DNA of 64,000 nt from Escherichia coli (GTDB taxonomy: Bacteria; Pseudomonadota; Gammaproteobacteria; Enterobacterales; Enterobacteriaceae), in assembly GCF_045037415.1 (NCBI RefSeq), contig NZ_CP173440.1. One strand, written 5' to 3'. Made by a program: the position numbers and the translations under genes. Shown here one piece after another: positions 4,868 through 31,885 of the stretch. The notes below the pieces were generated by a model. It searched no databases and was not told the origin of the DNA. It was given only the letters and a program-made list of their open reading frames with translations. The first letter of the stretch is position 1. Each line of letters opens with the position of its first letter.

Positions 4868-5227
4868 TTACCGGCGTTTATCAATAGTGTCAACTATCAA
4901 GCTTATGTAAGCAGACCTCGAATCTTCACTGTCGGACTGTCTTGCATAGGCTTTTTTTATTGCTCCATCGGAGAGTGGATGCTTCATATTGAGGAATAAC
5001 ATTACCACCAACACATCAATACAGCGGGCGGATGCAAAATACTCATAGATATAATCGTACGTCGTTTTTTTAAAATCGCCCCCCACTGAGCCGAGGTCAA
5101 TCAGCGCTGCGATTATCTCTCCTGCCTCGCCATTCCTAACAGTTGGCTTCAACTGGCTTAGTTTTCGTTTCAGAGCCTCCTCGCGATCTCGTTGTTGCTG
5201 TAGATAATCAGAAAGGCTATTAAACAT
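4868..5227 (-). CDS. hypothetical protein
   Basis: 119-aa ORF. Confidence 0.5.
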   Translation of the reverse strand: MFNSLSDYLQQQRDREEALKRKLSQLKPTVRNGEAGEIIAALIDLGSVGGDFKKTTYDYIYEYFASARCIDVLVVMLFLNMKHPLSDGAIKKAYARQSDSEDSRSAYISLIVDTIDKRR

Positions 5228-6970: not shown

Positions 6971-7300
6971 ATGGATAAACGTTACGAGTTGGCTGACAAG
7001 CACGGGATGTCCCATGAATTCATCGACTGGTTTTTCGATAAAAAGAAGGATGGTTCTGGGGACCTGTGGTTTGTCATGATGTCGGCAATGTGGGAGGGCT
7101 ATAAAGCCCGGGACACCCATTCGACAAAAGCATTTGCGTACCACCAAGAGCAACAAAATTTTGAAGCATGGTGGGAACAGAACAACGAAGGGGGGCCTCT
7201 CTCTGGTTGGGAGAATCTCCGAGCTAAAGATGGATATAATGACGAAGACATTGACAAACAATGGGAGGCCTGGCTGGTCAGAGCTCGTTATACTGGTTAA
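6971..7300 (+). CDS. hypothetical protein
   Basis: 109-aa ORF, Trp-rich and acidic. Confidence 0.5.
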   Translation: MDKRYELADKHGMSHEFIDWFFDKKKDGSGDLWFVMMSAMWEGYKARDTHSTKAFAYHQEQQNFEAWWEQNNEGGPLSGWENLRAKDGYNDEDIDKQWEAWLVRARYTG

Positions 7301-7371
7301 AACCACAGATATTATTTGCGCTGGGTTAAATGAGTGATAAACTATCACGCAGATAACCTGTGGAGGCAATA

Positions 7372-8787
7372 ATGTCTGAATTTGATTCCCTTGCGGAAGA
7401 GCTGGTGGAAGAGGCACGTAATGAAGAGGCCAGACAACAGCAAAGGGACCTGTCCCTGATAGGGAAAGTCCTTGAAATCTATGATCAGAAGTTTGTTGCC
7501 GAACTTTTGCGTAAGCTGGGAAATTCAGACTGGACCAGGGAGACCCTGAACCGCTGGATTAACGGGAAATGTGGGCCACGTTCACTTACCGTAACTGAGG
7601 CATCGCTTCTTGAAAGACTGCTCCCGCAGCCGCCAGCAAACCATCCCAATTATGCTTTTCGCTTCATCGATCTCTTCGCCGGTATCGGCGGTATCCGTCA
7701 TGGGTTTGAAGCCATTGGCGGCCAGTGTGTTTTCACAAGTGAATGGAACAGCTATTCAGTCAAAACTTATAAAGCAAACTGGTACTGCGATCCCGAAGCG
7801 CATATCTTCAATTCGGACATCCGCGATGTGACACTCAGTCATAAGGAAGATGTCAGCGAAGAAGATGCCTACGCCCATATCGATAAATCGATACCCGATC
7901 ATGATGTTCTGCTGGCTGGTTTCCCGTGTCAGCCCTTTAGCCTTGCAGGTGTGAGCAAAAAAAACTCACTTGGCCGTAAACACGGTTTTGAATGTGACAC
8001 CCAGGGGACCCTATTCTTTGATGTGGCTCGTATCATCATGGCAAAAAAACCGGCCATCTTTGTACTCGAGAACGTCAAGAACCTCAAAAGCCATGATAAA
8101 GGGAAAACTTTCCGTGTCATTATGGATACCCTGAATGAGCTCGGTTACGACGTTGCTGATGCTGAAGCTACAGGTGCGGATGATCCAAAAGTTATAGATG
8201 GTAAGCATTTCATCCCTCAGCACCGGGAGCGTATTGTTCTGGTGGGCTTCAGACGTGACCTGAATTTAAGTCAGGGATTTAGCCTTGCTGACATTTCTTC
8301 GCTGTTTCCTGAAAGAAAAGTGCTGTTCAGAGAACTCCTTGACAGTGATGTTGATGATAAATACACACTAACGCCAAAGCTGTGGGATTATCTCTATAAA
8401 TACGCCAAAAAACACCAAGAGAAAGGTAATGGCTTTGGCTTTGGCCTGGTTAAACCAGACGATGATAAAGCTATTTCCAGAACAATATCAGCAAGGTATC
8501 ACAAAGATGGCAGTGAATCGCTTGTTGATCGTGGTTGGGATAGCGAACTCGGTGAAAAAAACTTTAATGACCCTGATAACATGGCCAGACGTCCTCGGCG
8601 TCTAACACCGCGTGAGTGTGCCCGGCTAATGGGATTTGAGCAGCCAGGGAAAGTAACTTTTCGAATCCCAGTATCCGATACTCAGGCTTACCGCCAGTTC
8701 GGAAATTCCGTCATCGTGCCGGTATTTGATGCGGTAGCGAAATTGCTGGAGTCACGGATCATCGAGGCTGTAAAGTCTCGGAAATAG
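7372..8787 (+). CDS. DNA cytosine-5 methyltransferase, Dcm/M.EcoRII-like (probably CCWGG)
   Basis: Motifs [10 protein letters not shown] (I), [11 protein letters not shown] (IV), ENVKNL (VI), QFGNSV (X). Near-collinear with Dcm/M.EcoRII as I recall them. ATG 7372 follows a GGAGG SD. Confidence 0.92.
8650..8660. promoter_or_regulatory. intragenic copy of AAAGTAACTTT inside the methylase gene
   Basis: Exact motif encoding GKVTF, at a position where Dcm and M.EcoRII have different residues. Confidence 0.4.
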
Positions 8788-8795
8788 TACACTAA

Positions 8796-8815
8796 AAGAG
8801 CCCTGAGGGGCTCTT
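8796..8815. terminator. bidirectional hairpin between the convergent M and R genes
   Basis: AAGAGCCCTGAGGGGCTCTT GC-rich stem between stops at 8787 and 8877. Confidence 0.5.
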
Positions 8816-8876
8816 CATTTATCTGTGCAGGTATTGTTCTGTGCGCATAAAACATTCAATGATATTAGGGAAGACG

Positions 8877-10079
8877 TCAAGAATAGAGTTCCTTAATTTC
8901 ATTGATAAACGCAGACAAAGACATTAACTCTCCTCTAATTTCCTCGGGAAAGGCCTTATGTAACCCTTCCGGTACAACGAGTCGTATGCCCTCAGCCTGC
9001 ATTTCCCTGAACTGGGCGACAGATACGCCCTGCTGTAGGGTGAACAGGTGTACTGTATCTATTCTGTTAGCCTCATTCAGTACCTGCCGCCAGCGGTCCT
9101 TACAGGTTGTTTTTACCCCCAACATGCGTAACCGTTCTGCCGGGTAGTCAGGATCGCGATAGGCTGCACCGGAAGGGAAGATGAAATCGGGTTTTTTCTT
9201 ACCTTCTGTGGTGGCCTGCGTTTCGAAGCTCGTTGCGCCGTGTTCGGTGAAAAGGGACTCAAGATGTAGCTCAAGGCTTTTCCCGGCACGAGACTTCCTT
9301 CGGTTACTCACCGAGTTAGCAAGCGTAATAAAATCATTCACAGTTGCAAAACCTTTGGCTATCTGCCCCAACACGTGCAGTTCCTCAACGGCAAGGAAAA
9401 TTTCAAACTCAATTTTTCTTCTTCGCGTCAGTTGAGTATCCGGATCGCTTGTCTTTTTATCGTAATGGCATGCAGCAAAACCAATAATTTCCCTGCCTGA
9501 AGGGAAATAGTGATTCCATTCCGGTGGTAACTTATACTTTGTTCTTCCTGGAGGGGTCTCTGTAACGAACCCTCCAATTATTTTGTCTCCAGGGCCAAAT
9601 ATTGTTGCTCCCGGGATAACTTCACCAATTATTGGTTCAAGAATCTCTTCCTCGCTCAGGTCTTTGCACACCCAGACATCACAATAACTGGAAGATGTTC
9701 CTGGCATATGATCGAAGGCGAGAAGTGCCAGAGCGCCGGTATTCTCCGGATTCTGGAGAGGATTTTGTTTACCAAAACCCGTCAGACGCTTTTCATCACG
9801 GGTGCCGCCGAAAAATTTATTGTTGTAGTAAATGGCCCTTACATCATTTAGGTCAGGACAATCAGGATGAGATGACACGTGAACGGAAAAAAGAGCTTCG
9901 GGATTTCTTAACTGAGTATCACGGAGGGAGGGGAACAGCTCATCAATGACGGCACCCGGCATGTAAAGACCAGACTGGTGGGATTTTGTAGCGCCGGTAT
10001 CGTTAGCGGATAAGCGCTTAACGAATACCCAAACATTCGCAGAACACTTTGTTTGCAACCACTCCGCCAGAAGACTCAT
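8877..10079 (-). CDS. type IIE restriction endonuclease, EcoRII-like
   Basis: N-terminal VKRLSANDTGATKSHQSGLYMP effector domain. C-terminal ANSVSNRRKSRAGKSLELHLE, VKTTCKDRWRQVLNEA, HLFTLQQGVS match my recollection of R.EcoRII. Convergent with the methylase gene. Confidence 0.88.
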   Translation of the reverse strand: MSLLAEWLQTKCSANVWVFVKRLSANDTGATKSHQSGLYMPGAVIDELFPSLRDTQLRNPEALFSVHVSSHPDCPDLNDVRAIYYNNKFFGGTRDEKRLTGFGKQNPLQNPENTGALALLAFDHMPGTSSSYCDVWVCKDLSEEEILEPIIGEVIPGATIFGPGDKIIGGFVTETPPGRTKYKLPPEWNHYFPSGREIIGFAACHYDKKTSDPDTQLTRRRKIEFEIFLAVEELHVLGQIAKGFATVNDFITLANSVSNRRKSRAGKSLELHLESLFTEHGATSFETQATTEGKKKPDFIFPSGAAYRDPDYPAERLRMLGVKTTCKDRWRQVLNEANRIDTVHLFTLQQGVSVAQFREMQAEGIRLVVPEGLHKAFPEEIRGELMSLSAFINEIKELYS

Positions 10080-10658
10080 TCAAACCACTCCACCATAAAC
10101 ACTCACTGTTTATGAGCGATGTTACGGATCCTGAGGTAAGAAGCAAGTCTAATGAGACTGAGCAAGACAGCAGGGAAGGAATTTTTAACTATGAATCCAC
10201 TTTTATGATCAGAAGGTTATGCATAAAAACATTCAAACACCATTATTGAATGATTTATTTAATCACTAGTTATCTGAATAAATGTTATCACTATCTTAAC
10301 ATTACATACATAAATTAATTTACATCTGAAAATGATAATGAAATTAATAACAAACAACATTGTGTAATTTCCTTCTTATAATTTTCCACTGTTTATGAGA
10401 TGTGTCCCCCTCTTTAATTCAAAATTAGCCGCCTAAAGAAATTTAAGGGATTGACGAAGCGACTTTAAATGCAAGAATAGATATGCACGTTGTTCTTAGT
10501 AATGAAAGATACATAGGAAAGAGCTGTGTTTTCGTTCTTAAAGGTCAACATAGTGCGTACAAAATATGTTTTATTACAATCAAAATGCGGGATTTCATTG
10601 ACTAAACATTTATATGTGGAAAAATAGATTCATCCCGTATCACTCAAAAAGGTAACAT

Positions 10659-13468: not shown

Positions 13469-13903
13469 TTATCCAGGCTTTTTGCTGTTTTTATCAAAGG
13501 GAGGATCAATTACCATATCCGCAGCTTTGTCCCACTCACTTGGGGTCACTGCTCCCGTCAGGTACGCAATCCTCATACCTATTGTAGGTCTGCCCGCTTT
13601 CATGAGATACGCCGCTGCACCTGCACACATAGCATCTTTCGTTGAAGGGGTGTACAAGCCATCTTCAAATTGCCCGCCAGCAATAGAATGTACAATTTTA
13701 TGGCAGTAAAAGGTTGTGTGATCATCTTTTAGCAGGGTATCGATAATGGACGATAGACGACCAGGGCTCAGATGGATGGCCCCTTCTTTCCTGAAAGGGC
13801 AGTTAGCACAGGGCATCTTTAACCGAAACATATCTTTGATGCGGAAATGCCCCCCAGCACCCAAGGTTGTTGGTTCGATACTGCCTGTTTTATCTTTTTG
13901 CAT
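13469..13903 (-). CDS. hypothetical Cys-rich protein (start uncertain)
   Basis: Track ORF extends to 14026, but that N-terminus overlaps a better small ORF in another frame. Conserved-looking part starts near MQKDK/MFRLKMPCANCPF. Confidence 0.5.
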   Translation of the reverse strand: MQKDKTGSIEPTTLGAGGHFRIKDMFRLKMPCANCPFRKEGAIHLSPGRLSSIIDTLLKDDHTTFYCHKIVHSIAGGQFEDGLYTPSTKDAMCAGAAAYLMKAGRPTIGMRIAYLTGAVTPSEWDKAADMVIDPPFDKNSKKPG

Positions 13904-13931
13904 ACTTGCACCAACCGTGATAAACGAAAAT

Positions 13932-14102
13932 TGCTTGTGATTGCAGTCAGCGATCTGAGCACCGTTCCTCTTTTCTCTCTTCTGAATCGTCCCAGCAGTA
14001 TTCTGATATCGCTCTAGTGACAGCAACTGAGTTGTCTTCAGCTAAAACATGATAATCAGCAAACCTAAAGTTATCACACAGTATTACTGTGTAACGCTTC
14101 AT
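13932..14102 (-). CDS. small hypothetical protein (56 aa)
   Basis: Below the track cutoff; GAGGAG SD 5 nt before ATG; MKRYTVILCDNFRFADYHVLAEDN... Confidence 0.4.
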
Positions 14103-17976: not shown

Positions 17977-18100
17977 TTCATTATTAATAAATATTTTGTT
18001 CCAAACGGACTCAGTATTGACCCTGAATCACTTACTCATGAGAAGGTCGAGCAATTCATTCAAATCATTAAAACAACACAACAGCTATCAGTGAGGCGAT

Positions 18101-18748
18101 ATGTCGACAGAGAGCAGCTCAAAAATCACTTTTACTTTTAACGGTAAGGCTCCTCAAAACTGGAGAACTGCCTTGAATAGTAAAAAGAAAGGGTCCTGGA
18201 TTGATCCGCAATCCAGCGGCAGCAAAGTACTGCAAGAAATCCTCAGTAACACCGGAATTGATGCGGACAGCCTGAGCGGTAATGATGTTCTGATTTTTTC
18301 GGTGCCCTCTCAGCGTGAGATTTTGTCTGAACTTCTTGGGATCTATGCCGTTTCAGATGCCAGAGTGTTGCTTATTGCCGCTACGCAATTCTGCCCAAAC
18401 CTTTCTGGTGTGCTGGTAACAACCCACCAGCTTCTTTCTGATGGCAGTTCCGTTGCCAGCGAACAAAAAGCTACACGTAACCTTTTGTTCATGACACACA
18501 ACGGTATCTGTATTCAGTGTGATTTTTCTTTGAATCTTGATCCGTCCAAACTACCCGGTGCCCGTTTCTTTGCCTGTGAAGCTGATATGGAACAAGCAGG
18601 TATTGAGCGCTGGGGCGAGAATGGTGGAGATGCCTGGCGTGCCGTAGCTACGATTATGCATGGCGAAAAAATTCTCCTGAATGGTTCCGGCCAGATATTA
18701 AAACTGGATGACAGGCCGGAAGAACGAATTAACGCTGTCAGCAATTAA
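18101..18748 (+). CDS. hypothetical protein
   Basis: 215-aa ORF. Confidence 0.6.
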   Translation: MSTESSSKITFTFNGKAPQNWRTALNSKKKGSWIDPQSSGSKVLQEILSNTGIDADSLSGNDVLIFSVPSQREILSELLGIYAVSDARVLLIAATQFCPNLSGVLVTTHQLLSDGSSVASEQKATRNLLFMTHNGICIQCDFSLNLDPSKLPGARFFACEADMEQAGIERWGENGGDAWRAVATIMHGEKILLNGSGQILKLDDRPEERINAVSN

Positions 18749-18761
18749 ATCCATTTAAAGG

Positions 18762-19016
18762 GTGACGATTATGAACACAACTTTTCTGGGGCAGAGTGAG
18801 TTTATCAAGCATGAAGGTCTTTTATTCTTGTTATCTGACGAAAGCTGTTTAGCTATTAACCATATTGAATGGGCTGAAAAAATATTGTCCAGTGATAATG
18901 TTAAATATCAAAATGGCCGGATGTCTCATGAAGTCGCCTACGAAGTTATGGAAGAATCCCAAGATATCTTATTAGAATATTTGTGTCTGACTTTACCGCA
19001 AGTTCCCACCCGATAA
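18762..19016 (+). CDS. hypothetical protein
   Basis: 84-aa ORF; ATG at 18771 is also possible. Confidence 0.5.
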   Translation: MTIMNTTFLGQSEFIKHEGLLFLLSDESCLAINHIEWAEKILSSDNVKYQNGRMSHEVAYEVMEESQDILLEYLCLTLPQVPTR

Positions 19017-19045
19017 ATTATCTACTTGAATCGAATGAGACTATC

Positions 19046-19072
19046 GAGCCCCCCTGAGTTCAGGAGGGGCTC
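19046..19072 (+). terminator. hairpin terminator
   Basis: GAGCCCC...GGGGCTC stem after the stop at 19016. Confidence 0.5.
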
Positions 19073-19277
19073 TTAACCATAACCAGAGTTCCTTCAGTCA
19101 ATACAATCAGAAGCAAATAGTTTTATCAAAAAATTAATGCAAACCAACCATAAACAGTTAATGTTTATATTGTTGCCAGCAACAACACACATTAAATCTT
19201 CCTTTTTTTATAATCAACCCCTGGCGCACAGAACTAAATGTGAGATAATGGGTTTGTGAAATTCACCGGAGTCTTAT

Positions 19278-20522
19278 ATGTCGCGTCTGAACATGGATTT
19301 AATCGAAGCTATTTATTCCGAATCCGACCGCGAACTCACTAATAATGAGTTGTATCGGGAGGTTCAGTCTCGCCTTGCTATTCCAGATGATGCGTTCAAT
19401 GCAAAAGAAAAATTCGGTACGGCGGGTGTTCCCCATAATAAAATTAAACACCGTATTCGCTGGTTTCAACAAACCCTAAAATCCATGAACGTCATCGAGC
19501 GTTTAAGCTCTGGCCGTTCTCTATGGCGTCACTGTCGGAAAAACAAATCAGGCCTATCCGAGGTCAGAGAAGGGGCTTGTTTAGTGGCATTCAGTACAGA
19601 TCTCGGGGTGGCGATTTTAGGCAACTCTACAATGGTGTTACCAGGCAATACCGAGCCGGTCCATCTCTGCCTGACATCTCCACCGTATCCACTCAGAAAG
19701 CAGCGGGATTATGCCGCAGCCTTCAAAAACGACAGTGACTATATTGATTTCATCGTGGAAGCCATTAGACCAATCGCCCGCCAGCTGGTTAACGGTGGTT
19801 CTGTTGTGCTGAATATCGGTCAGGATATTTTTAATCCGGGTCAGCCTTCTCGTTCCCTCTACCCTGAGCGCCTATTACTGGCCTTGTGCGAGAAACTAGA
19901 CCTCTACCTGATGGACCGGGTGCCGTGGGTGAATATGAGCAAACCACCCTCACCGACATATTGGGCCTGCCGTAAGAAAGTTCAGCTGCTGGCCGGTCAT
20001 GAAATGATTTTCTGGCTGACCAATAATCCTGATGCTGTCCGCTCCTGTAACCAGCGCGTTTTGCAGCCCCACACTGAGAGCCACAGCGCGTTGGTTGCCA
20101 GAGGCGGAGAGAACCGTACGACCATCTACGGTGACGGTGCCCATGTCGTGAAACCAGGGGCCTTTTCTCAATCCACTGACGGGGCTATTCCCAAAAATGT
20201 AATAATCCGAGGCCATGCATGTGCTGACACTCGCCGGTTTCATCAGGAGGCTAAACGCTTAGGGCTTCCTGCTCATGGGGCGATGTTCCCTACGGCCATC
20301 CCCGATTTTTTCATACGGTTCCTGACGGAGGAAAACGAGCTTGTTGTTGATCCTTTTGCCGGTTCTCTCAAGACAGGCCTGGCCGCCGAGCGGCTCAACC
20401 GCAGATGGATGTGTTTTGATAGTATTCTGGAATGGTTACGAATTTCAGCCACCGGCTTTTTTTCTGACTTCCCGGGATTTGAGATGAACCCGATTATTGA
20501 TAACGGTGAGTTGTTCGCGTAA
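19278..20522 (+). CDS. N4-cytosine/N6-adenine DNA methyltransferase (beta class)
   Basis: Motif IV LTSPPYP precedes motif I VVDPFAGSLKTG. About 110-aa N-terminal extra domain. Confidence 0.85.
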   Translation: MSRLNMDLIEAIYSESDRELTNNELYREVQSRLAIPDDAFNAKEKFGTAGVPHNKIKHRIRWFQQTLKSMNVIERLSSGRSLWRHCRKNKSGLSEVREGACLVAFSTDLGVAILGNSTMVLPGNTEPVHLCLTSPPYPLRKQRDYAAAFKNDSDYIDFIVEAIRPIARQLVNGGSVVLNIGQDIFNPGQPSRSLYPERLLLALCEKLDLYLMDRVPWVNMSKPPSPTYWACRKKVQLLAGHEMIFWLTNNPDAVRSCNQRVLQPHTESHSALVARGGENRTTIYGDGAHVVKPGAFSQSTDGAIPKNVIIRGHACADTRRFHQEAKRLGLPAHGAMFPTAIPDFFIRFLTEENELVVDPFAGSLKTGLAAERLNRRWMCFDSILEWLRISATGFFSDFPGFEMNPIIDNGELFA

Positions 20523-20590
20523 GCGGCCGTTACGAATAAACATTATTCACTCTGTCTTTTGCGGAGTGAACGATCACAGGAGATGGCGAT

Positions 20591-23500
20591 ATGCCTGACA
20601 TTATCCCGCACCAACAACAGCCGGAACGTCTTCATAAATTTCACTCCCTCAAGGGAGGGCAATACTGGCGCGCAAAAAACGATATTCCTGAGCAATGTAT
20701 TGAACAGGATGAAGTGTTGCTGATTGAGTCGCTCCGCTGGGTTGATAATGCACTCCATACTGTGATCCTCCGCACCCATCCGTCAAAATACGGTAAAGAC
20801 TTTGTTTTCAAATTTACCGATGCTGCTGGCCGTAGCTGCCGCACCACGAAATCGTTTAAAGAGCATCGATTTCTGTTTAATGACTTTCTGGATAAATTTG
20901 AATTTGCAGATGATGGGCAGGATATCCGGAGCCAGGAACTGCTTGCAGCTCAAAACCGGGTTAGCCAGCTGACTCAGCAAATGACCGAAACCATGTCTGA
21001 TCCTGAAGCACTGCGTACGGAACTCCTCGGCAGGGTTGAAGCAAAGAAAGCCAGTTCATCGACGCCAGGCGATGACAAAAAGCAACTTCCTATGGTTATG
21101 GAGCTGTCTTCATCAACTGAGATAGCGTCTCTTGGCACAGCTCTGTCATCAGGTATCGATGAAGCCAAAATAGCACAGCTCCAGCAGGCTGTTGAGTTCA
21201 GACATGAAATCGCACAGGCGCAAATCGACTGGATTAAAGAAAAGAATAATGCGATTTCGAGAGCCGTCATGGCTATTACTCCCTATCTGGAAGAGTCGGC
21301 TGCCGCCCAGCTTGCCATTGCCGAAGAAAGTCGCGAAACGCTGAATAAACTGATGGACGGTATAAAGTCCCTTGACCTCTACATCGGGAAAGATGTGGTC
21401 GTGAACACTATCAGGGAGGGTGAATCAGCACCGCCACACATTCCCTTGACGTTCGTACAGCGTAAGCTGGCCGTCGATGAGGAAACGGCTGTTTTTCTCG
21501 ATATAGGAGAATGGTTTGATTTTGAAAAGTTGCCACTTTTTTTCCATGCATTAAACAACCATCCAGGGCTGGTGGAGCAGATCTTCCCGTCACAGCGCTG
21601 CGTGGTATGTATGACCACTACCCGTCGCTATATTGATTATCAGGACCGTTGGGCTAACTGGGAGCTCAATGCAAAAAACCAGACGGTCTTTCTGATGGTT
21701 CGGGACGGCGAACGGCTGTTCCAGGTTTACTCTGGAGTAGAGTCTCACCTCGGCGCTCATACACTTTTTCCAACCACCGATGAACAGGGAAATATCTTTC
21801 GAGGCATTGACGGTTCGCAGGTTACGTTCAATGACGTGTCATACACTGACAAGCTTAAAGCGCATGAGATGGTTGCTCTGCATTATTACCGGTTTCTTAT
21901 CCTGTGCTGCGGGCTCGACCACCGGCTTAAGCTGTTTGGCGAGTTCTACGACCCTCAGGACCGCTTAAGTTTCGTCTCTATGGCGTTCCAGGAGAAGTAT
22001 TGTCGATTCATTTATGATCATGATGGTACTGGCCTTCTGGACGATCCTGATGCGAAAGTGCGCCCCTCTATTGAGGAGTATATAACCCAGGCCAATAGCC
22101 ATTTGCGCTCAGGTTCAAGAGTGTTTTGCGAGTGGAGAACTGTTTGTACACCAAATACTGCGCCGGGTGTTGTGAAAGTCGATACTAGTACCAGTTACCG
22201 ATCCTATTATTTTACTGCCGATTTCATCAATGATGATGGAATGGCAGTGGCCTTTACCCGCAACAATGAGATTTGCGTGGAGGTTCCGGTCAAAAAAGAT
22301 ATCTTCCGTCGCACCCGGGCTAATGATGTACGTGAATTTAATGCGAAAGTATCTCTCACTAATTTTCAGCGTGATCCGTGGGATGACGCCTGCAGCGTGG
22401 GATTCCTCTGTCTGGACGCGGTTAAAGCCGATGATCTGGATTATTACATCCACAGCCGTTCCAGCCGTAAGAATTTTATGTACTACATAAAGCTCTTCAA
22501 ACGCCTTTCAGCTGTCCTGAGAGTGGAAGAAGAGCAGGAGAAGCCCTATCGGCAAAAGCTCATCAGAGCGCTGGTGGATGGCAACATAGGCACAAAAACT
22601 AATCGTGCTGAAATCGTCGACAAGACAGTCATCACCTGGCGGGCGGACAAAAAAGGTCAGCCGCTTAGTGAAGGAATTGACAACGAGAAAAGCTGGAAAG
22701 CATTACTTGGCATGATGGACCTGATCGCCTGGCGCGGTTTGAGCCATAGAGAGGCTGCAGTGGAGATGGCCATCTCCCGGGGTAGCAAACCGTTACGTCT
22801 TATAGTCACGACAAATGCCAGACTGGCTCTGTATGTTACCCCTACAGCCGAGGAACGTGACGATCGCGTGGAAAAACATAAGTGGGCCATGCTGCTGACC
22901 TTTAAAATGTTAGCAAAAGGTCTGACTCTTGATTCCAGTAAACCTGCGTTGCTAAGCAAAAATAGTGTGTGCGAAACAACCCTCTATGAATGGCCGGAGG
23001 CCAATGAGTGGAAAGGGTTGAAATCAGTGTTCTCCAGCTTTAACGAAAAGCAAAGAGCGTTTGAATATATTGAGACAGGCAAAGAGGACCTCCGAAAACT
23101 GTCTCCGGCTAACCCCTCAGAATTTGAGGCTGGGGTACGTGAATGGATGACGGCCTACTGCGAAATGAATGATTACCGCAAAACCGGGGGCCAGGTGCAG
23201 CAGCCGAGATTGATGATACCGGTAGGCATCTACATTAACCGGGGAGACTGGCAGTATATCTACGTCACTACAGAGAGTGAGGCCGCTGGGTATTCTTATC
23301 ACAACTGCAGCGAACGCCTGAAAAAGGAACTTTTTCAGGAATATGTTTCACGCTTTGCTCACCCGGAAGGAAAGCTCGAACGGCTTGAAACTCGGGGGAA
23401 CCAACTGGCATTGGTCATGACGAACAAAACTCCCGACATCGGCATGTTCTGTGCAGATCGCAATATTGAAATGGATAGCGTGAATTATGGACCTTTATCT

Positions 23501-23971
23501 TACAGTGCCTACAGCCAGCTTCAGCGAATTGAAAACCGATTGATTTTTGTCCTAGCTGAAGCGGAACGCGGGTTACATCGCAGGATTTATATTGCCGATA
23601 ACCTTAAAAGCGACAATGGTGAGTTTATCATAGATGAACTCCTTGGTTCCTCACATCTACAGGCACAGTCTCCCGTTGATGTTTTCGAAGTCATTCTACC
23701 TAAGTCGTTGTCAGAAGGCCCGCTGCCGGTAATGAAATCGAGTGGTGAAATCTACCGTATTCACCACTGGTTTGATATCTGTCCAAAAGGCGCTGAGGCT
23801 AATGTTTCATTGAGCAATATCGAGGCACCAGTAAATAAGGTTACCAGACACAGTTTCGATAGCAGGGAGGCGGCAATCATGCATATCCTGATGCAGAAGG
23901 ATACCGTTAGGAAAAATATCTCCGAAGACAGATTCAACACGCCAGAAGGCGTTGTCGAAAGGTGGTATTAG
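20591..23971 (+). CDS. large protein of unknown function (1126 aa)
   Basis: Single uninterrupted ORF. Coiled-coil-like region at about aa 110-260. I could not find Walker A, nuclease or methylase motifs. Confidence 0.8.
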   Translation: MPDIIPHQQQPERLHKFHSLKGGQYWRAKNDIPEQCIEQDEVLLIESLRWVDNALHTVILRTHPSKYGKDFVFKFTDAAGRSCRTTKSFKEHRFLFNDFLDKFEFADDGQDIRSQELLAAQNRVSQLTQQMTETMSDPEALRTELLGRVEAKKASSSTPGDDKKQLPMVMELSSSTEIASLGTALSSGIDEAKIAQLQQAVEFRHEIAQAQIDWIKEKNNAISRAVMAITPYLEESAAAQLAIAEESRETLNKLMDGIKSLDLYIGKDVVVNTIREGESAPPHIPLTFVQRKLAVDEETAVFLDIGEWFDFEKLPLFFHALNNHPGLVEQIFPSQRCVVCMTTTRRYIDYQDRWANWELNAKNQTVFLMVRDGERLFQVYSGVESHLGAHTLFPTTDEQGNIFRGIDGSQVTFNDVSYTDKLKAHEMVALHYYRFLILCCGLDHRLKLFGEFYDPQDRLSFVSMAFQEKYCRFIYDHDGTGLLDDPDAKVRPSIEEYITQANSHLRSGSRVFCEWRTVCTPNTAPGVVKVDTSTSYRSYYFTADFINDDGMAVAFTRNNEICVEVPVKKDIFRRTRANDVREFNAKVSLTNFQRDPWDDACSVGFLCLDAVKADDLDYYIHSRSSRKNFMYYIKLFKRLSAVLRVEEEQEKPYRQKLIRALVDGNIGTKTNRAEIVDKTVITWRADKKGQPLSEGIDNEKSWKALLGMMDLIAWRGLSHREAAVEMAISRGSKPLRLIVTTNARLALYVTPTAEERDDRVEKHKWAMLLTFKMLAKGLTLDSSKPALLSKNSVCETTLYEWPEANEWKGLKSVFSSFNEKQRAFEYIETGKEDLRKLSPANPSEFEAGVREWMTAYCEMNDYRKTGGQVQQPRLMIPVGIYINRGDWQYIYVTTESEAAGYSYHNCSERLKKELFQEYVSRFAHPEGKLERLETRGNQLALVMTNKTPDIGMFCADRNIEMDSVNYGPLSYSAYSQLQRIENRLIFVLAEAERGLHRRIYIADNLKSDNGEFIIDELLGSSHLQAQSPVDVFEVILPKSLSEGPLPVMKSSGEIYRIHHWFDICPKGAEANVSLSNIEAPVNKVTRHSFDSREAAIMHILMQKDTVRKNISEDRFNTPEGVVERWY

Positions 23972-23980
23972 GGGAGCTTT

Positions 23981-24334
23981 ATGTTTAGCAAGTTCTTTGT
24001 TTTGACCAGTATTGTTGTTTGGATTATGCCGGTGATGACTATCGCTGGCGCAATTTTCCGTAAGGACCTGTTAACCCGAAAAGAATGGATTTTTCTCGTT
24101 TTCTTTAGCATTGTCGGTGCATCCTACGTTTCTTATTCCAGCTGGCAGGACAGGAACATAGGCCTGGTGCCAATAGGGAAAGAATATTTATCTTGCCAGT
24201 TAAAATCGCGTAATGAACCCGACCCCGAAACTTTCAGGACTGTGACCCTTGATTGTGGCGGAGAAGAAAAAATGGCTAAAGAGGAATTGTATGATGCAGC
24301 TGTAAAAGCCGCCATAAAATACGGTTACGAGTAA
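23981..24334 (+). CDS. small membrane protein
   Basis: 117 aa with 3 TM helices; starts 10 nt after the 1126-aa ORF. Confidence 0.6.
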   Translation: MFSKFFVLTSIVVWIMPVMTIAGAIFRKDLLTRKEWIFLVFFSIVGASYVSYSSWQDRNIGLVPIGKEYLSCQLKSRNEPDPETFRTVTLDCGGEEKMAKEELYDAAVKAAIKYGYE

Positions 24335-24410
24335 ATCATCAAGAACCACTTTTCTCCATTTTACCCCTCTGCAATTTTGTATTTCGTTCTATCCACCAGC
24401 ACAGGCCCAC

Positions 24411-24618
24411 GGTCCCGGTAAACCCGGAACCGGGACCTGTGCCGTGAGAACCACTTTAGACGGGTCACATCACTTCAAAGGGAAGCTGTCGCCGTCTCAG
24501 TCACCCGGTCTCAAAATTTTTACAGGCATTCAGCCTGCAAAAACTTTGAGCTGCGGCTTCCTTCTCCGCCCTTTTTCGTTCTGTTTTCCCCGTCTGCGTT
24601 TGTCTCACGGCACAGGTC
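24411..24618. other. long imperfect hairpin / structured intergenic element
   Basis: GGTCCCGG(24411-18)/CCGGGACC(24430-37). 16-bp perfect inverted repeat GACCTGTGCCGTGAGA (24434-49) / TCTCACGGCACAGGTC (24603-18). Inner AGACGGG/CCCGTCT pairing. Confidence 0.45.
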
Positions 24619-24655
24619 AGGCCGCACACAATCCTAAATTGCTGGAGAATACGCT

Positions 24656-25447
24656 ATGAATGCTTTTAATAATCTGTTTAACCGTCACTGTCAAAACACT
24701 CTGCTGGCTCGCGGATGGCCTGCCGATATGGAACTGAACTATTCATTAGCTTACTGCCAGGGAGATGGTGTGGCATTTTACGGCGTGCTGCATGACAAAG
24801 AAATATTGTCCTTATTGGCTGGTCTGGTGAAATATAATCATATCACTGCAAAACTGGCAGAAGAGGTTGCTGAAGTAATCAAAGACAGCGAAACAAAACT
24901 CATCCTTGAACGCAACGGTTTTGGGTACCGATATTCTCATGCAAATACCATCCGAGTCCTGTTAGAAAATTACCCAGAAGATATCGGATATGAAGATCGC
25001 TTTTATGACGTTCTGGATAGTATCCAGGGGAGCATTGAGGAGATATGTAGCACGCTTGAAAATGACGGTTATAAAATCCATGAAAATATGAGCCCTTCCT
25101 ATGCAGGCGACCTTGTTATGTCACGTGCCACAGCTAATTTCGAAATCATTGTAACCGAAAGCGAAGAGGAATTTTGGGACACATCAGATGCCTGGGATGA
25201 TGAATGTAAAGATTTATACATAGCTGATCTTCTTACCGGGAGATATGAACTGAAGAATCTTGAAATAATCGTGAGGGGAAGAACCACAGGAAAGGTATAC
25301 GGACAACATTACGCCGAACTGGTTTCAATTAACAAAAATAGTCCGGTGCGACGTTGGTTTGACCGCGATTGGTTAAGGTTAGCATTTGAGGAAGCGCGGG
25401 TAAAAATTGAAGATAGCCGTAAGGAACTTACAAACATAAGGTTATAG
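24656..25447 (+). CDS. hypothetical protein
   Basis: 263-aa acidic ORF. Confidence 0.65.
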   Translation: MNAFNNLFNRHCQNTLLARGWPADMELNYSLAYCQGDGVAFYGVLHDKEILSLLAGLVKYNHITAKLAEEVAEVIKDSETKLILERNGFGYRYSHANTIRVLLENYPEDIGYEDRFYDVLDSIQGSIEEICSTLENDGYKIHENMSPSYAGDLVMSRATANFEIIVTESEEEFWDTSDAWDDECKDLYIADLLTGRYELKNLEIIVRGRTTGKVYGQHYAELVSINKNSPVRRWFDRDWLRLAFEEARVKIEDSRKELTNIRL

Positions 25448-25459
25448 TTTCTCCAATGA

Positions 25460-25481
25460 GGGGCTGCAGCAGTGCAGCCCC
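25460..25481 (+). terminator. hairpin terminator
   Basis: GGGGCTGCA-GCAG-TGCAGCCCC, 13 nt after the stop. Confidence 0.55.
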
Positions 25482-25893
25482 AACCTTTCAGGTGACCGTC
25501 CCAGGAGTAGTGCGATTCATGGTCCGGTGGGTTCAGAAAACATTGCCAGATAGCGTTTGCTGTCTTCTGCGCCCCTTGCTGTACGAAATCTAAGGCCCGA
25601 ACCATAGCTTTCGTAGCTACGTTTATCCTTGAAAGAACCATTTTCTAACGACATCAAACCATCCACAAAAGCCCAATTTTTGGATTATCGTCCGGAAGCG
25701 ATCGTGCTCAGGATCACGCGGATCCTTTTCTGGATCGTTAAGGGTAAAACCTTTCAGTTAGTTCAGCCTGCTAGTTAACTAGCCTCTCAGAGGCCCGTAA
25801 TCGCTCTCAGAAGCCGTTTCTTAGAAAAATGGTACCTACCTACGTATAATATTTGCGACTAATCCTGGTGTGTTTGACGACCATTCTGCGCTG

Positions 25894-26420
25894 GATCCGA
25901 TCATTACCACTGTTCGAGGTACCGAAACTCAACCACCAGCACTACCCTGCAGAGAGGCAACACCCACTGGTTTTGTTCTTATCATACTAATAAATAACGA
26001 ATTATTAAACTGTATGACAGTGATCTACGTTATGTCTTCGGCATATTTGTTGTTGTTTATTCCGATCTGGGATCCAGCTTCGGTAAGAGTTAGGGGTCAA
26101 ATCCCCTAAAAGGAGACAAATGCTGTGTTTGTAAACGATTTTGTGGGTCCAGCCACTTATCCCCGTTATCCACACCCTATAACCAATAATTGATCCCAAT
26201 ATGATCCTAGATCTAACCCATAAAAACCAAAAGGATCCCCGGCGCTGTATCCAATTGAATTATATAAGAAAATCGACACTTTTGATTAACCGTCGTACGT
26301 GTTTTTGTTAATGTTCATATGGAGTTTCATTAATGCATGAATGATTTTAGTTAACAGTCGTATGCTGGATGATCTACAGTAATGGGATTCAACATTAACG
26401 GTCGTATGTTTAGGATAGGA
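25894..26420 (+). other. oriV-like region (DnaA box, GATC cluster, iterons)
   Basis: TTATCCACA at 26166-26174 with TTATCCCCG just upstream. GATC at 25894, 25899, 26064, 26071, 26192, 26203, 26210, 26234. Three iterons follow. Confidence 0.6.
26285..26408 (-). repeat. three iterons (consensus CRTACGACNGTTAAT)
   Basis: ATTAACCGTCGTACG 26285-99, GTTAACAGTCGTATG 26350-64, ATTAACGGTCGTATG 26394-408. The last lies 12 nt before the rep ATG. Confidence 0.75.
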
Positions 26421-26439
26421 ATGACTGTGAACAAGAAAA
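26421..26439 (+). pseudogene. detached first 6 codons of the rep gene
   Basis: AGGATAGGA SD plus ATG ACT GTG AAC AAG AAA A abutting the IS. Continues in frame as ...INNEIKEQ at 53299 on the minus strand. Confidence 0.7.
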
Positions 26440-26699
26440 CGGAATCTATGGTCACTCCCGTTTTTGCAACACCGATTTTGACGATAAATTGGCTTGCTTG
26501 AATCTATCCGGCGTCTGAATGGGATTTTATTCCCGCGCCTCGATGAGTTCCGCGCCTGATGAACCTCCAGAAAATATACGGCTTCAATGAGCCTTTCCGT
26601 TTTACAGGTTCCTCAACAGGCCGGTGGGCCGTTAGTATCATCAATATCAGTATTCGCAAAACCAGATCAGTGATTCTTTAAACCGGTGTATTTCTGCCG
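26440..26699 (-). ncRNA. candidate seekRNA/bridge-RNA region of copy 1
   Basis: 260-bp non-coding tail 3' of the transposase gene; see copy 2. Confidence 0.3.
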
Positions 26700-27704
26700 T
26701 TATGCTACATAAGTTTGCTGTCGTGCCGTTAGGGCCCAGGCTATTCTGGCCAGCTTGTTTGCCAGAGCACAAGTGACGACAAAGTTGCTTTTCCTACACA
26801 GTAGATCCCTGACCCAATCGGCCAATTTGCCAGACTGGTGTTCCAGTTTTTGTATGAATACCCTGGCACATTGAACCAACAAAGTTCGGATCTTTTTGTT
26901 ACCTCGCTTACTAATTCCCAGCAATGTCGTCCGACCTCCCGTGCTGTACTGTCGGGGTACCAGCCCTGTTGCCGCCGCAAAGTCACGACTGCTGGCGTAC
27001 TGCTTCCCGTCGCCAATCTCAGTTGAAATAGTACTCGCTGTCAGTGTTCCGACGCAGGGAATGCTCAGCAAGCGCTGTCCAATCTCATCTTCGTCCAACT
27101 TTCGTTTCAACTGGGATTCCAAATCTTTAATCTGCTCAACAAGATAGTGATAATGCTGTTGTAATTTCAGCAATAACTGGCTGAGGTATAGAGGCAAACT
27201 ATTGTCCTCAAGAAGGGTACTCAGTCGGCTAATAACGGCAGCTCCTCGTGGAACGCTGATGCCAAATTCCAGCAGAAAAGCATGCATCTGATTGGTTGTT
27301 TTTACCTTATCCTGAACCAGGGATTCACGGACACGATGCAGCGCACGCATTGCCTGCTGAGATTCAGTTCTGGGCTGTACAAAACGCATAGACGGACGCG
27401 ATGCAGCTTCACAAATAGCTTCGGCGTCGACAAAGTCGTTTTTGTTACTTTTAACGAATGGACGGACAAATTGTGGTGATATCAGCTTAGGAAAATGCCC
27501 CAACTCTTCCAACTTGCGTGCCATAAAGTGAGAGCCACCACAGGCTTCCATTGCGATGGTTGTAGCGGGGCATGTCGCCAAAAATTCGATTAACTTTGGC
27601 CGTGTAAATTTTTTACGGTAAACAGCCTTGCCGCGACGATCTTGGCAATGAATATGGAAAGAGTTTTTACCCAGATCGATACCAATGAGCGCAATGTTTT
27701 CCAT
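26700..27704 (-). CDS. IS110-family DEDD transposase
   Basis: 334 aa; MENIALIGIDLGKNSFHIH... N-terminal RuvC-like signature typical of IS110/IS1111. Confidence 0.92.
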   Translation of the reverse strand: MENIALIGIDLGKNSFHIHCQDRRGKAVYRKKFTRPKLIEFLATCPATTIAMEACGGSHFMARKLEELGHFPKLISPQFVRPFVKSNKNDFVDAEAICEAASRPSMRFVQPRTESQQAMRALHRVRESLVQDKVKTTNQMHAFLLEFGISVPRGAAVISRLSTLLEDNSLPLYLSQLLLKLQQHYHYLVEQIKDLESQLKRKLDEDEIGQRLLSIPCVGTLTASTISTEIGDGKQYASSRDFAAATGLVPRQYSTGGRTTLLGISKRGNKKIRTLLVQCARVFIQKLEHQSGKLADWVRDLLCRKSNFVVTCALANKLARIAWALTARQQTYVA

Positions 27705-27771
27705 GATAGTTCTCCGAATGAAAGCCTATCCTCAGCATAGTACCGGGAAGGAGGGAGTGACCATCTCATTA

Positions 27772-28023
27772 AATGTCATCAATCACTACATCAAAACCTG
27801 TGAACATCTCCGAAATGTGATCACATTCTTCAAATTGCTGAGCGGTAGGGTATAGAGCATCGGGAACCTCAAGTTCAGCCAAACATGATTTACCAGACCC
27901 GGTTTCTCCAATAATAAATACAAGAGCTTTATCTTCTGTTTGCTTGAGATATTTAGTAATGACCCCCATGTTATCCTCAAGATTTTTCATTACTAAAGCA
28001 GGTAAGTTTTTATCAAGATTCAT
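27772..28023 (-). pseudogene. N-terminal half of small P-loop protein, truncated by the IS
   Basis: Walker A IIGETGSGKS and Walker B-like FDVVIDDI, then the IS-supplied stop. The C-terminal half is at 54632..54862 on the other strand. Confidence 0.8.
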
Positions 28024-31016: not shown

Positions 31017-31126
31017 TGAATTTTCCTCTTCCTGTTGTATGTGGGTAAACGGTCATTGCCGTTGTTAGACCCAGGATACATTCTCAAAACGCTCCATCAA
31101 GCCCCTATTTTCACTTTGGCGTGAAA

Positions 31127-31885
31127 AAAGTTACTTTTTTTTGTTCACGGCAAAAATTTTACACATGATTCTTCTGTGGCAAGGGCTCCAGGAGCCGGAT
31201 TTCGGTGTTTATGTGAAGAAAATTTTTTCAGTGGTATGCCGGGGATCATAATTTTTGGATAATTTTGAAGGAGATACGAACAGTGAAGGTGATTACAGAC
31301 GATGCATGTCTCATTGATTTTTAGGACATAAATCGTCAAAAGTTACTTTTTTGAGGGTGATAACGACACTTGAACACGCTTCTCAGGACAGAAAAGTAAC
31401 TTTTTTCAGTGCTGAGCCCACTCTTTCAAAAGTTACTTTTTGATAAAACCTGCGTTCGGGGAAGGAGGCAAAGCTTGCGGGGGGAAGGAAGAAACTATTT
31501 TTATCTGATTGTGCAAATCATAGACGCTCAGCCCGTCATGTTGATCCCCGTACGCAGATAGACAAATGTTCGGGGTTTAAAAAGTTACTTTTCAGGTGCT
31601 GTGCTGTTTCACGCTGCCGGATACATAGCAGGTACAGGTATCCTGTCCTGCTATGAGAAGACCAGCGCCCCTGTTTAGTTCGTCTCTGTTTGCAGCTCTT
31701 TGCGAGCGTTTGCGATCAACTCGTTCACTTCATCGCGGTCAAATCCTGGCATTGCGGGCAAAACCGTATCGGAAGGAACGGCATCAATCCACTCAAGAGC
31801 CGCAAGCAGTGCGCTTAGTAATTGTTCATTAATTTTCATTAGACCGCCTATTTCAACCTTTTTACTATCTTTAAAAAGTTACTTT
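31127..31885. promoter_or_regulatory. cluster of six AAAGTWACTTT palindromes upstream of the parB-like gene (parS/operator-like array)
   Basis: Exact cores at 31127, 31339, 31393, 31429, 31581 and 31875. Confidence 0.6.
31675..31839 (-). CDS. small hypothetical protein (54 aa)
   Basis: Below the track cutoff; MKINEQLLSALLAALEWIDAVPSD... Confidence 0.35.
   Translation of the reverse strand: MKINEQLLSALLAALEWIDAVPSDTVLPAMPGFDRDEVNELIANARKELQTETN

What the first reader, a model, noticed from the sequence alone, without database searches (positions are those of the whole stretch)
19278..24334. Methyltransferase plus 1126-aa unknown plus small membrane protein: uncharacterised three-gene module
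A beta-class N4/N6 DNA methyltransferase (SPPY motif before the DPFAGS motif, with an extra N-terminal domain of about 110 aa) is followed after 68 nt by a single 3.4-kb ORF. A 3-TM protein starts 10 nt after that.

In the large protein I found no P-loop, no PD-(D/E)xK or HNH signature, no methylase motif and no HExxH. There is only a coiled-coil-like stretch at about aa 110-260.

The module lies between two defence loci and is followed by a large structured element. A methylase coupled to a giant unknown protein could be a novel methylation-dependent defence or anti-defence module. It could also simply be an orphan leading-region methylase beside a structural or establishment protein. I cannot tell which from sequence alone.
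Basis: inference. Interest (0 to 1): 0.55.

Follow-up and report, generated by a model that had tools for sequence, protein, structure and literature searches.

The report
Orphan methylase beside giant unknown protein
The three neighbouring genes on this Klebsiella resistance plasmid are real but are not a functional unit: an ordinary solitary DNA methylase sits next to a large, widespread mobile-element protein whose fold and function are still unknown.

Summary
The three ORFs exist exactly as described. The window is backbone of a Klebsiella pneumoniae IncHI1B/IncFIB (pNDM-MAR-type) plasmid.

- Of 38 loci carrying a relative of the 1126-aa protein, only the window and an 83%-identical K. grimontii copy have the methylase next to it.
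- On IncHI2 plasmids both genes are present but 77-170 kb apart.
- A complete IncT plasmid has the giant gene and no such methylase.
- Most IncHI2 plasmids keep the methylase while IS26 has truncated the giant gene.
- The 117-aa protein is confined to the IncHI1B lineage.

The methylase is an orphan M.PvuII-like enzyme, probably N4-cytosine, with an Mrr_N-like N-terminal domain. Relatives occur on about 2,175 plasmids.

My best guess is a dispensable, stand-alone establishment or anti-defence factor of large mobile elements. That is inference only. Interest is modest and rests on the giant protein alone.

The parts
19278..20522 (+). Orphan beta-class DNA methyltransferase, 414 aa. It is M.PvuII-like and probably N4-cytosine-specific. 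Residues 1 to about 104 form an Mrr_N-like winged-helix domain; residues about 104-396 form the catalytic domain.
   Evidence: PF01555 E 3.7e-27; Mrr_N E 1.7e-4. PADLOC MTase_II PDLC03323 E 2.5e-50. Best solved relative is M.PvuII 1boo, E 1.1e-41, over residues 104-396. SPPY at 134 and DPFAGS at 358.
20523..20590 (+). 68-nt spacer with a weak 7-bp inverted repeat and an AGGAG ribosome-binding site. No terminator-like site, so co-transcription with the methylase is likely here (inference).
   Evidence: Sequence read; terminator scan.
20591..23971 (+). 1126-aa (129 kDa, pI 5.9) cytoplasmic protein of an uncharacterised family. It is a stand-alone accessory gene of large mobile elements.
   Evidence: Homologues. 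Presence on 1,329 plasmids. No family match. AF2 model with pLDDT 80. No fold relative.
20915..21385 (+). Giant protein residues 109-265: acidic (pI 4.7) antiparallel helical hairpin with a disordered, poorly conserved tip at 157-186.
21386..22426 (+). Giant protein residues 266-612: the most conserved part. It comprises an alpha/beta core plus a beta-rich subdomain with no recognisable fold relative.
22427..23200 (+). Giant protein residues 613-870: a basic helical region (613-730, pI 9.5, with conserved R623, R626, K637, R654 and R684) followed by a beta/helical region.
23201..23968 (+). Giant protein residues 871-1126: poorly conserved C-terminal region. In many distant relatives it falls outside the profile match.
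23981..24334 (+). 117-aa small protein with two N-terminal hydrophobic segments and a soluble C-terminal half. It is specific to the IncHI1B lineage.
   Evidence: Hydropathy. Found on only 520 plasmids, all of this lineage. Unrelated to the genes downstream of the giant gene elsewhere.

Best explanation
The region is ordinary plasmid backbone. Three functionally independent genes lie side by side in one lineage only, the Klebsiella IncHI1B/IncFIB pNDM-MAR-type plasmids. They are probably co-transcribed there.

(1) The methylase is an orphan M.PvuII-like beta-class enzyme, most likely making N4-methylcytosine. It has an N-terminal Mrr_N-like DNA-binding domain. It has no nuclease partner. I infer that it pre-methylates plasmid DNA, and perhaps host DNA, so that the plasmid survives type II restriction when it enters new hosts. 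A regulatory role is also possible.

(2) The 1126-aa protein belongs to a large uncharacterised family carried singly on big mobile elements. These include IncHI1, IncHI2, IncHI1B and IncT plasmids, beta-proteobacterial plasmids and ICE-like loci, and one jumbo phage. It has no ATPase, nuclease or methylase signature. It combines one or more small SH3/Tudor-like barrels, an acidic coiled-coil hairpin, a conserved core of unknown fold, a basic helical region and a variable C-terminus. It is dispensable for plasmid replication and transfer. My inference, with low confidence, is that it is a non-enzymatic or novel-enzyme host-interaction factor. It would act on its own to help a large invading element establish itself, for example by binding or blocking a host defence or nucleoid component. 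The variable C-terminus would provide target specificity.

(3) The 117-aa membrane protein is a lineage-specific add-on.

Shown: gene identities, orphan status, lack of synteny, dispensability and the absence of known folds. Inferred: every biochemical role.
For: Plasmid identity. The region is 100% identical to IncHI1B/IncFIB, MOBH, MPF_F plasmids.

Lack of synteny.
- In 38 loci with a giant-gene homologue, the methylase is adjacent only in the window and in K. grimontii L016 (83% identity). No gene family co-occurs within 10 kb in more than 8 of the 38 loci (contexts).
- The genes downstream of the giant gene are unrelated to one another.
- Both genes sit on the same IncHI2 plasmids but far apart. 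In NZ_CP085773.1 the methylase is near 38.5 kb and the giant gene near 211 kb. In CP067063.1 they are near 286 kb and 205 kb. In NZ_AP025793.1 they are near 336 kb and 184 kb.
- The complete IncT plasmid NZ_MW864328.1 has the giant gene and no methylase homologue.
- Methylase homologues stand alone in E. coli, Rahnella, Cupriavidus and Aeromonas loci.

Dispensability. Only 298 of 698 IncHI2 plasmids keep at least 80% of the giant gene. In the one truncated copy examined (L056) the gene is cut by IS26 next to a resistance island. 686 of the 698 are still typed conjugative. Fragmented copies occur in IncT/Rts1-like plasmids.

Methylase class. PF01555 match, M.PvuII 1boo at E 1e-41, and the SPPY-before-DPFAGS order. 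Large plasmids commonly carry orphan methylases, and some of these protect against restriction (PMC11602122).

Giant protein is not a conjugation or partition part.
- No family hits.
- No PDB sequence hit.
- Foldseek found nothing at E 0.001 or below.
- A 37.8%-identical homologue, gp128, occurs in the isolated jumbo phage Tunturi 5.
Against: Within the IncHI1B lineage the three genes are tightly packed, with no predicted terminator between them. The order is kept even in a divergent member where the small protein is only 55% identical. A lineage-specific functional link therefore cannot be excluded.

IncHI2 plasmids carry both the methylase and the giant gene, so co-occurrence at plasmid level was not ruled out statistically.

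Nothing computed here gives direct evidence for an anti-defence or establishment role of the giant protein. Many invariant polar residues (H386, D415, H431, R434, D443, D476) could equally mark an unknown enzyme.

The methylase's target site and base (m4C or m6A) are inferred from similarity only.
Confidence: 0.7

Rival explanations
1. The methylase, the giant protein and the small membrane protein form a novel methylation-dependent defence system, analogous to R-M, BREX or DISARM. The giant protein would be the effector that attacks unmethylated DNA.
For: The genes are tightly spaced and co-oriented, with no terminator between them. The order is conserved across about 520-530 plasmids of the lineage, including a divergent one. 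Other defence loci lie on the same plasmid.
Against: The adjacency is absent from all 36 loci whose giant protein is 49% identical or less. The giant gene occurs on an IncT plasmid with no such methylase. It lies 77-170 kb from the methylase on IncHI2 plasmids. The methylase persists where the giant gene is truncated. There is no PADLOC hit for the giant or small protein. The giant protein has no nuclease, ATPase or helicase motif or fold.
Confidence: 0.05
2. The giant protein is a housekeeping component of large plasmids. It would be a coiled-coil DNA-organising, partition-accessory or conjugation-accessory protein in the manner of KfrA or an SMC-like scaffold.
Confidence: 0.12
3. The giant protein is a single-gene defence or exclusion protein, such as an abortive-infection or anti-plasmid factor, carried as plasmid cargo. 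The variable C-terminus would sense invaders.
For: The architecture is a conserved N-terminal 850 residues with a variable C-terminus. The gene is dispensable and patchily lost. It sits among toxin-antitoxin, R-M and CRISPR loci.
Against: There is no PADLOC match. No effector-type domain is recognisable. It is fixed as a single-copy backbone gene at a constant position in whole plasmid lineages, rather than in variable defence islands. It is carried by a jumbo phage among early-type small genes.
Confidence: 0.13

Closest known systems
M.PvuII (PDB 1BOO), a beta-class N4-cytosine DNA methyltransferase
   Same: The catalytic domain aligns over residues 104-396 with E 1.1e-41. It has the SPPY catalytic motif, and motif IV precedes motif I.
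   Different: M.PvuII is the partner of the R.PvuII endonuclease and lacks the ~100-residue N-terminal Mrr_N-like domain. Here there is no endonuclease. The target sequence is unknown, and CAGCTG is not avoided in the window.
Orphan methyltransferases of large conjugative plasmids, such as the pKAZ3 cytosine methylase in PMC11602122
   Same: It is a solitary methylase gene on a large conjugative plasmid. Relatives occur on about 2,175 PLSDB plasmids, and none had a nuclease gene beside it in the six relatives' loci inspected (L013, L014, L015, L050, L051, L052).
   Different: Protection against restriction has not been tested for this family. It is a different methylase class from Dam or Dcm.
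Defence systems that combine a methylase with large proteins (BREX PglX/PglZ/BrxC, DISARM)
   Same: A methylase is followed by a very large ORF in one apparent operon.
   Different: The gene pair is not conserved. The giant protein lacks ATPase, helicase, phosphatase and nuclease domains and has no PADLOC model hit.
SH3/Tudor-like barrels of SF1B helicases and TraI translocation-signal domains (3E1S, 4L0J, 5DMA)
   Different: Only a small generic barrel matches. No helicase or relaxase core is present, and the matches are too weak and short to imply homology or secretion.
Large stand-alone host-takeover or anti-restriction proteins of big mobile elements, such as P1 DarB-type proteins (from my own knowledge)
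   Same: It is a very large single gene carried by big plasmids and a jumbo phage. It is dispensable and sits among small early or accessory genes.
   Different: DarB has recognisable methylase and helicase domains, whereas this protein has none. No functional evidence exists. The resemblance is of lifestyle only.

Membership tests
Beta-class N4/N6 DNA methyltransferase (Pfam N6_N4_Mtase, PF01555) | Profile match above the curated cut-off | tested here: met
   96.2 bits against a cut-off of 26.7, residues 128-389.
Beta-class N4/N6 DNA methyltransferase (Pfam N6_N4_Mtase, PF01555) | Catalytic (D/S)PP(Y/F) motif IV lies N-terminal to the AdoMet-binding FxGxG-like motif I | tested here: met
   SPPY at 134, DPFAGS at 358.
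Beta-class N4/N6 DNA methyltransferase (Pfam N6_N4_Mtase, PF01555) | Methylated base (m4C or m6A) and recognition sequence | not testable with these tools
   m4C is suggested by the SPPY motif and by M.PvuII as the nearest solved relative. SMRT or nanopore methylome data are needed.
Type II restriction-modification system | A cognate endonuclease gene next to the methylase | tested here: not met
   Neither neighbour has a nuclease motif, family or fold. Homologous methylases are solitary elsewhere.
Known methylase-containing defence systems (BREX, DISARM and others in PADLOC-DB) | Partner proteins match the system's models | tested here: not met
   The methylase matches generic MTase_II models and one weak MTase_III model (E 8.4e-5). 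The giant, 117-aa and 263-aa proteins match nothing.
   The methylase is adjacent in 2 of 38 loci, both in the same lineage. The small protein is found only in that lineage. The large genes are separated or singly present on IncHI2 and IncT plasmids.
Conjugation, partition or replication protein families | Sequence or fold similarity of the giant protein to type IV secretion, relaxase, ParA/ParB/ParM or Rep families | tested here: not met
SMC/Rad50-like coiled-coil ATPases | Walker A/B ATPase head flanking the coiled coil | tested here: not met
   No Walker A motif. Foldseek hits to Smc5/6 and RecN have probability 0.08 or less and cover the helices only.
Leading-region (early-entry) anti-defence genes of conjugative plasmids | Location next to oriT on the first-transferred side, with single-strand promoter elements | tested here: inconclusive
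   No transfer gene or oriT lies in the 64-kb window. A strong hairpin follows the module, but it was not shown to be a single-strand promoter. In the IncT plasmid the giant gene lies about 77 kb from mobI.

The most novel reading that the evidence does not exclude
The 1126-aa protein represents a previously undescribed class of single-gene host-interaction factor of large mobile elements. The class has at least 2,038 clusters at 50% identity and is present on about 1.8% of sequenced plasmids, including the IncHI1, IncHI2, IncHI1B and IncT resistance plasmids. It also occurs in beta-proteobacterial plasmids and ICE-like loci and in a jumbo phage. It would be built on a core fold with no solved relative. 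It would act alone, independently of the neighbouring methylase, to counter a host defence or nucleoid barrier during establishment.
Probability: 0.3. Interest if true: 0.7.

Novelty: new member of a known kind. Interest (0 to 1): 0.35.

Why it matters
The proposed module would have been a new kind of methylation-linked defence. It is not one, which removes a false lead.

Two things remain. The first is routine: another orphan plasmid methylase, probably helping IncHI-type resistance plasmids cross restriction barriers. The second is a real gap. A 129-kDa protein is conserved on major multidrug-resistance plasmid families and on other large mobile elements. It has no annotation, no domain and no recognisable fold. 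Knowing what it does could bear on how very large plasmids establish themselves in new hosts.

Tried and rejected
- Family scans of the giant protein against Pfam, NCBIfam, PADLOC and PHROGs gave nothing. A Pfam scan of all 42 aligned family members gave no recurrent hit.
- A profile search of PDB sequences returned only chance hits with E of 1 or more.
- Motif regexes for P-loop, HExxH, DExx, PD-(D/E)xK, HNH-like and GIY found nothing convincing.
- A search for a conserved partner gene around 38 loci found none.
- Literature searches by accession and topic found no paper on either the IncHI1B or the IncHI1 copy. The main text of the IncHI1 core-genome and proteome paper does not single the gene out; its supplementary tables were not opened.
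- I counted CAGCTG, the PvuII site, as a proxy for methylase specificity. There were 28 sites against 14.8 expected, so the site is not avoided and the result is uninformative.
- An Rfam scan of 18000-28000 gave no hit.
- Promoter and terminator scans of the region were at background level.
Full report
WHAT IS THERE

The three ORFs are present at exactly the stated coordinates: 19278-20522 (414 aa), 20591-23971 (1126 aa) and 23981-24334 (117 aa), all on the + strand. The gaps are 68 nt and 9 nt. Each downstream ATG is preceded by a Shine-Dalgarno-like sequence. No terminator-like site lies between the genes. A hairpin resembling a terminator closes the preceding gene within the 261-nt upstream spacer. 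In this plasmid the three genes therefore probably form one transcript; this is inference.

The segment is 100% identical to many Klebsiella pneumoniae plasmids of 300-420 kb. These are typed IncHI1B/IncFIB (some also IncR), MOBH, MPF_F, the pNDM-MAR type. In them the genes are annotated 'site-specific DNA-methyltransferase' and 'hypothetical protein' twice.

THE METHYLASE

- PF01555 matches residues 128-389 at 96 bits against a cut-off of 26.7.
- SPPY at residue 134 precedes DPFAGS at 358, which is the beta-class order.
- The nearest solved structure is the N4-cytosine methylase M.PvuII (1boo), with E 1.1e-41 over residues 104-396.
- The first ~104 residues give a weak Mrr_N match (E 1.7e-4). 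The same domain is recorded for most of the 881 homologues found.
- Relatives at 40-57% identity occur on about 2,175 PLSDB plasmids. These include plasmids of IncHI2 size (214-385 kb), a set of smaller (137-212 kb) enterobacterial plasmids I did not type, Pseudomonas megaplasmids and Xanthomonas plasmids.
- In the E. coli, Rahnella, Cupriavidus and Aeromonas loci that I inspected, the methylase stands alone among small backbone genes, with no nuclease partner.

It is therefore an orphan methylase of a common mobile-element type. Published work shows that large plasmids usually carry orphan methylases and that some of them protect against restriction on entry (PMC11602122). I did not test that role for this family. 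CAGCTG, the PvuII site, is not avoided in the window, which says nothing either way.

THE MODULE TEST

I collected 38 loci that encode a relative of the 1126-aa protein: the window, six from exact-protein look-ups and 31 from one-genome-per-species contigs. I then clustered all flanking ORFs within 10 kb.

- The methylase is adjacent only in the window and in a K. grimontii contig whose giant protein is 83% identical.
- All 36 loci at 49% identity or less lack an adjacent methylase. L039 and L041 each have a same-cluster N6_N4-type methylase ORF, but 6.8-8.2 kb away and of different length (553 and 305 aa).
- No gene family accompanies the giant gene in more than 8 of the 38 loci.
- The genes immediately downstream of the giant gene are unrelated to the 117-aa protein and to one another.
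- The 117-aa protein is found on only 520 plasmids, all of this lineage. In a divergent member where it is only 55% identical, the whole backbone from RelE to the methylase, giant gene and small gene is collinear. That reflects lineage backbone conservation rather than a mobile module.

The two large genes also behave independently in three ways.

- IncHI2 plasmids carry both, but 77-170 kb apart. This is seen in NZ_CP085773.1, CP067063.1 and NZ_AP025793.1.
- The complete IncT plasmid NZ_MW864328.1 has an intact giant gene and no homologue of this methylase, by tblastn over the whole plasmid.
- Of 698 IncHI2 plasmids matching the IncHI2 giant gene, only 298 keep at least 80% of it. In the example inspected, IS26 and a resistance island cut it after 144 bp. 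The plasmid is still typed conjugative, and the group as a whole retains the methylase family.

The three-gene module is therefore not supported.

THE GIANT PROTEIN

It has no signal peptide-like or membrane segment; the maximum hydropathy is 1.15. It has no Walker A, HExxH, DExx, PD-(D/E)xK or methylase motif. It has no Pfam, NCBIfam or PADLOC match; the only PHROG match is non-significant (E 0.077). A Pfam scan of all 42 aligned relatives also finds nothing recurrent.

The family is nevertheless large.

- A first search found 231 full-length relatives of 1,000-1,180 aa in Gamma- and Betaproteobacteria.
- A profile search of 1.84 billion representatives found 2,038 clusters at E 1e-3 or below, 658 of them at 1e-30 or below.
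- tblastn finds the protein on 1,329 PLSDB plasmids, 1,165 of them typed conjugative. These include IncHI1A, IncHI2, IncHI1B, IncT/Rts1-like and other MOBH plasmids, and Pseudomonas and Xanthomonas plasmids.
- Every source calls it hypothetical.

Conservation is highest over residues about 240-480 and low beyond about 840. Many distant relatives match the profile only up to about position 930.

AlphaFold2 with a 42-sequence alignment gave mean pLDDT 80. The model shows, in order:

- an N-terminal beta-barrel (25-105) with invariant H56, H63 and H92;
- an acidic helical hairpin (109-265) with a disordered tip;
- an alpha/beta core followed by a beta-rich subdomain (266-612);
- a basic helical region (613-730, pI 9.5);
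- further beta and helical elements, and a variable C-terminal third.

CLUES TO FUNCTION

- The gene is dispensable. It is truncated in most IncHI2 plasmids and fragmented in IncT/Rts1-type relatives. This argues against an essential role in replication, partition or transfer.
- It always sits in long co-directional arrays of small unknown genes typical of plasmid accessory or establishment regions. Neighbours in different elements include umuDC, dsbA, H-NS, KfrA, ArdC, DUF3846, DUF6283, DUF7673, toxin-antitoxin pairs, ssb, dinI, dam and rdgC.
- It is not confined to conjugative elements. Jumbo myovirus Tunturi 5 (309 kb, host in the Acidobacteriota) encodes a 37.8%-identical full-length homologue, gp128. 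That gene lies among small hypothetical genes, an RNA ligase and a DNA ligase. One IMG/VR contig also has a homologue.
- The pattern of a conserved body with a variable C-terminus fits a protein that meets changing host targets.

My best inference is a stand-alone host-interaction factor that helps a large invading element establish itself, that is, anti-defence in the broad sense. I put this at about 0.3-0.35. Single-gene defence or exclusion (about 0.13) and a non-essential DNA-organising role (about 0.12) remain open. None of these roles is shown.

CONTEXT AND VERDICT

The 'two defence loci' are a Dcm-type type II R-M pair at 7360-10079 and a type IV CRISPR-Cas locus from about 55 kb. The 'structured element' is a hairpin at about 24398-24622, with 16-nt perfect arms and a folding z-score of -6.8. 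No transfer gene lies in the window, so 'leading region' is unproven.

The module interpretation is wrong. The modest alternative, an orphan methylase beside an unrelated protein, is right. The only part with real residual interest is the giant protein family.

Noticed in passing
window 24398-24622 (intergenic 24335-24655): A long imperfect hairpin lies directly after the 117-aa gene and before the 263-aa gene. Its 16-nt arms at 24434-24449 and 24603-24618 are perfectly complementary. As single-stranded DNA the minimum free energy is -59.5 kcal/mol against -34.3 for shuffles (z -6.8). There is no Rfam hit, and it is unique in the window. It could be a single-strand initiation or promoter element, but this was not tested.
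   Followed up: partly
IncHI2 plasmids, e.g. L056 (NZ_CP039170.1) 5001-5171; The IncHI2 copy of the giant gene is reduced to its first 144 or 719 bp in about 400 of 698 plasmids. In the example inspected it is cut by IS26 next to a dfrA14-arr-2-cmlA resistance island. The plasmid is still typed conjugative.
   Followed up: partly
L061 (Tunturiibacter phage Tunturi_5, PP885688.1) 7025-10327: An isolated 309-kb jumbo myovirus of Acidobacteriota encodes a full-length homologue of the giant protein (gp128, 37.8% identity over 84%). Weak partial matches also occur in large Erythrobacter and Flavobacterium phages.
   Followed up: partly
window 13469-14026 (-); L007 11497-11922; L030 13503-13880: A DUF6283-like protein in the window is 44% identical to the gene lying directly downstream of the giant gene in Burkholderia. 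A homologue also lies downstream in Massilia. In both it is followed by a tyrosine recombinase. The DUF6283-recombinase pair recurs near the giant gene in several beta-proteobacterial loci.
   Followed up: no
L009, L011, L017, L019, L033, L045, L046; L013 11435-13819: A PAPS-reductase-like protein, about 800 aa where full-length, recurs within a few kb of the giant gene or of the methylase on other plasmids. The Tunturi 5 paper also lists a PAPS reductase (gp62). None is present in this window.
   Followed up: no
window 7360-8787 (+) and 8877-10079 (-): A convergent C5-cytosine methylase and type II restriction endonuclease pair lies 9 kb upstream. It is a separate, complete R-M system.
   Followed up: no
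window about 55400-60400 and 60774-61337: A plasmid type IV CRISPR-Cas locus (Cas6/Cse3-like, DinG-type helicase at 56753-58660 and others) is followed by an array of repeats with the palindromic core CCCCCGCATGCGGGGG.
   Followed up: no
window 26700-27704 (-) and 53366-54370 (+): Two copies of IS4321 (IS110 family) are present in opposite orientation. One lies 1.2 kb after the 263-aa gene, where gene orientation in the window flips from + to -.
   Followed up: no
window 31122-31593 and 51300-51610: Clusters of inverted AAAAGTAACTTTT(T) repeats are present. The second cluster lies close to the RepB-type initiator gene (52234-53385, -), so they are probably iterons.
   Followed up: no
window 62101-63588 (+): A group II intron reverse transcriptase/maturase (ltrA) lies directly after the CRISPR array.
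   Followed up: no
window 24656-25447 (+): The 263-aa protein after the hairpin matches two phage protein families of unknown function: phrog_8919 (E 8.6e-13, full length) and phrog_5162. It has no Pfam, NCBIfam or PADLOC hit.
   Followed up: no
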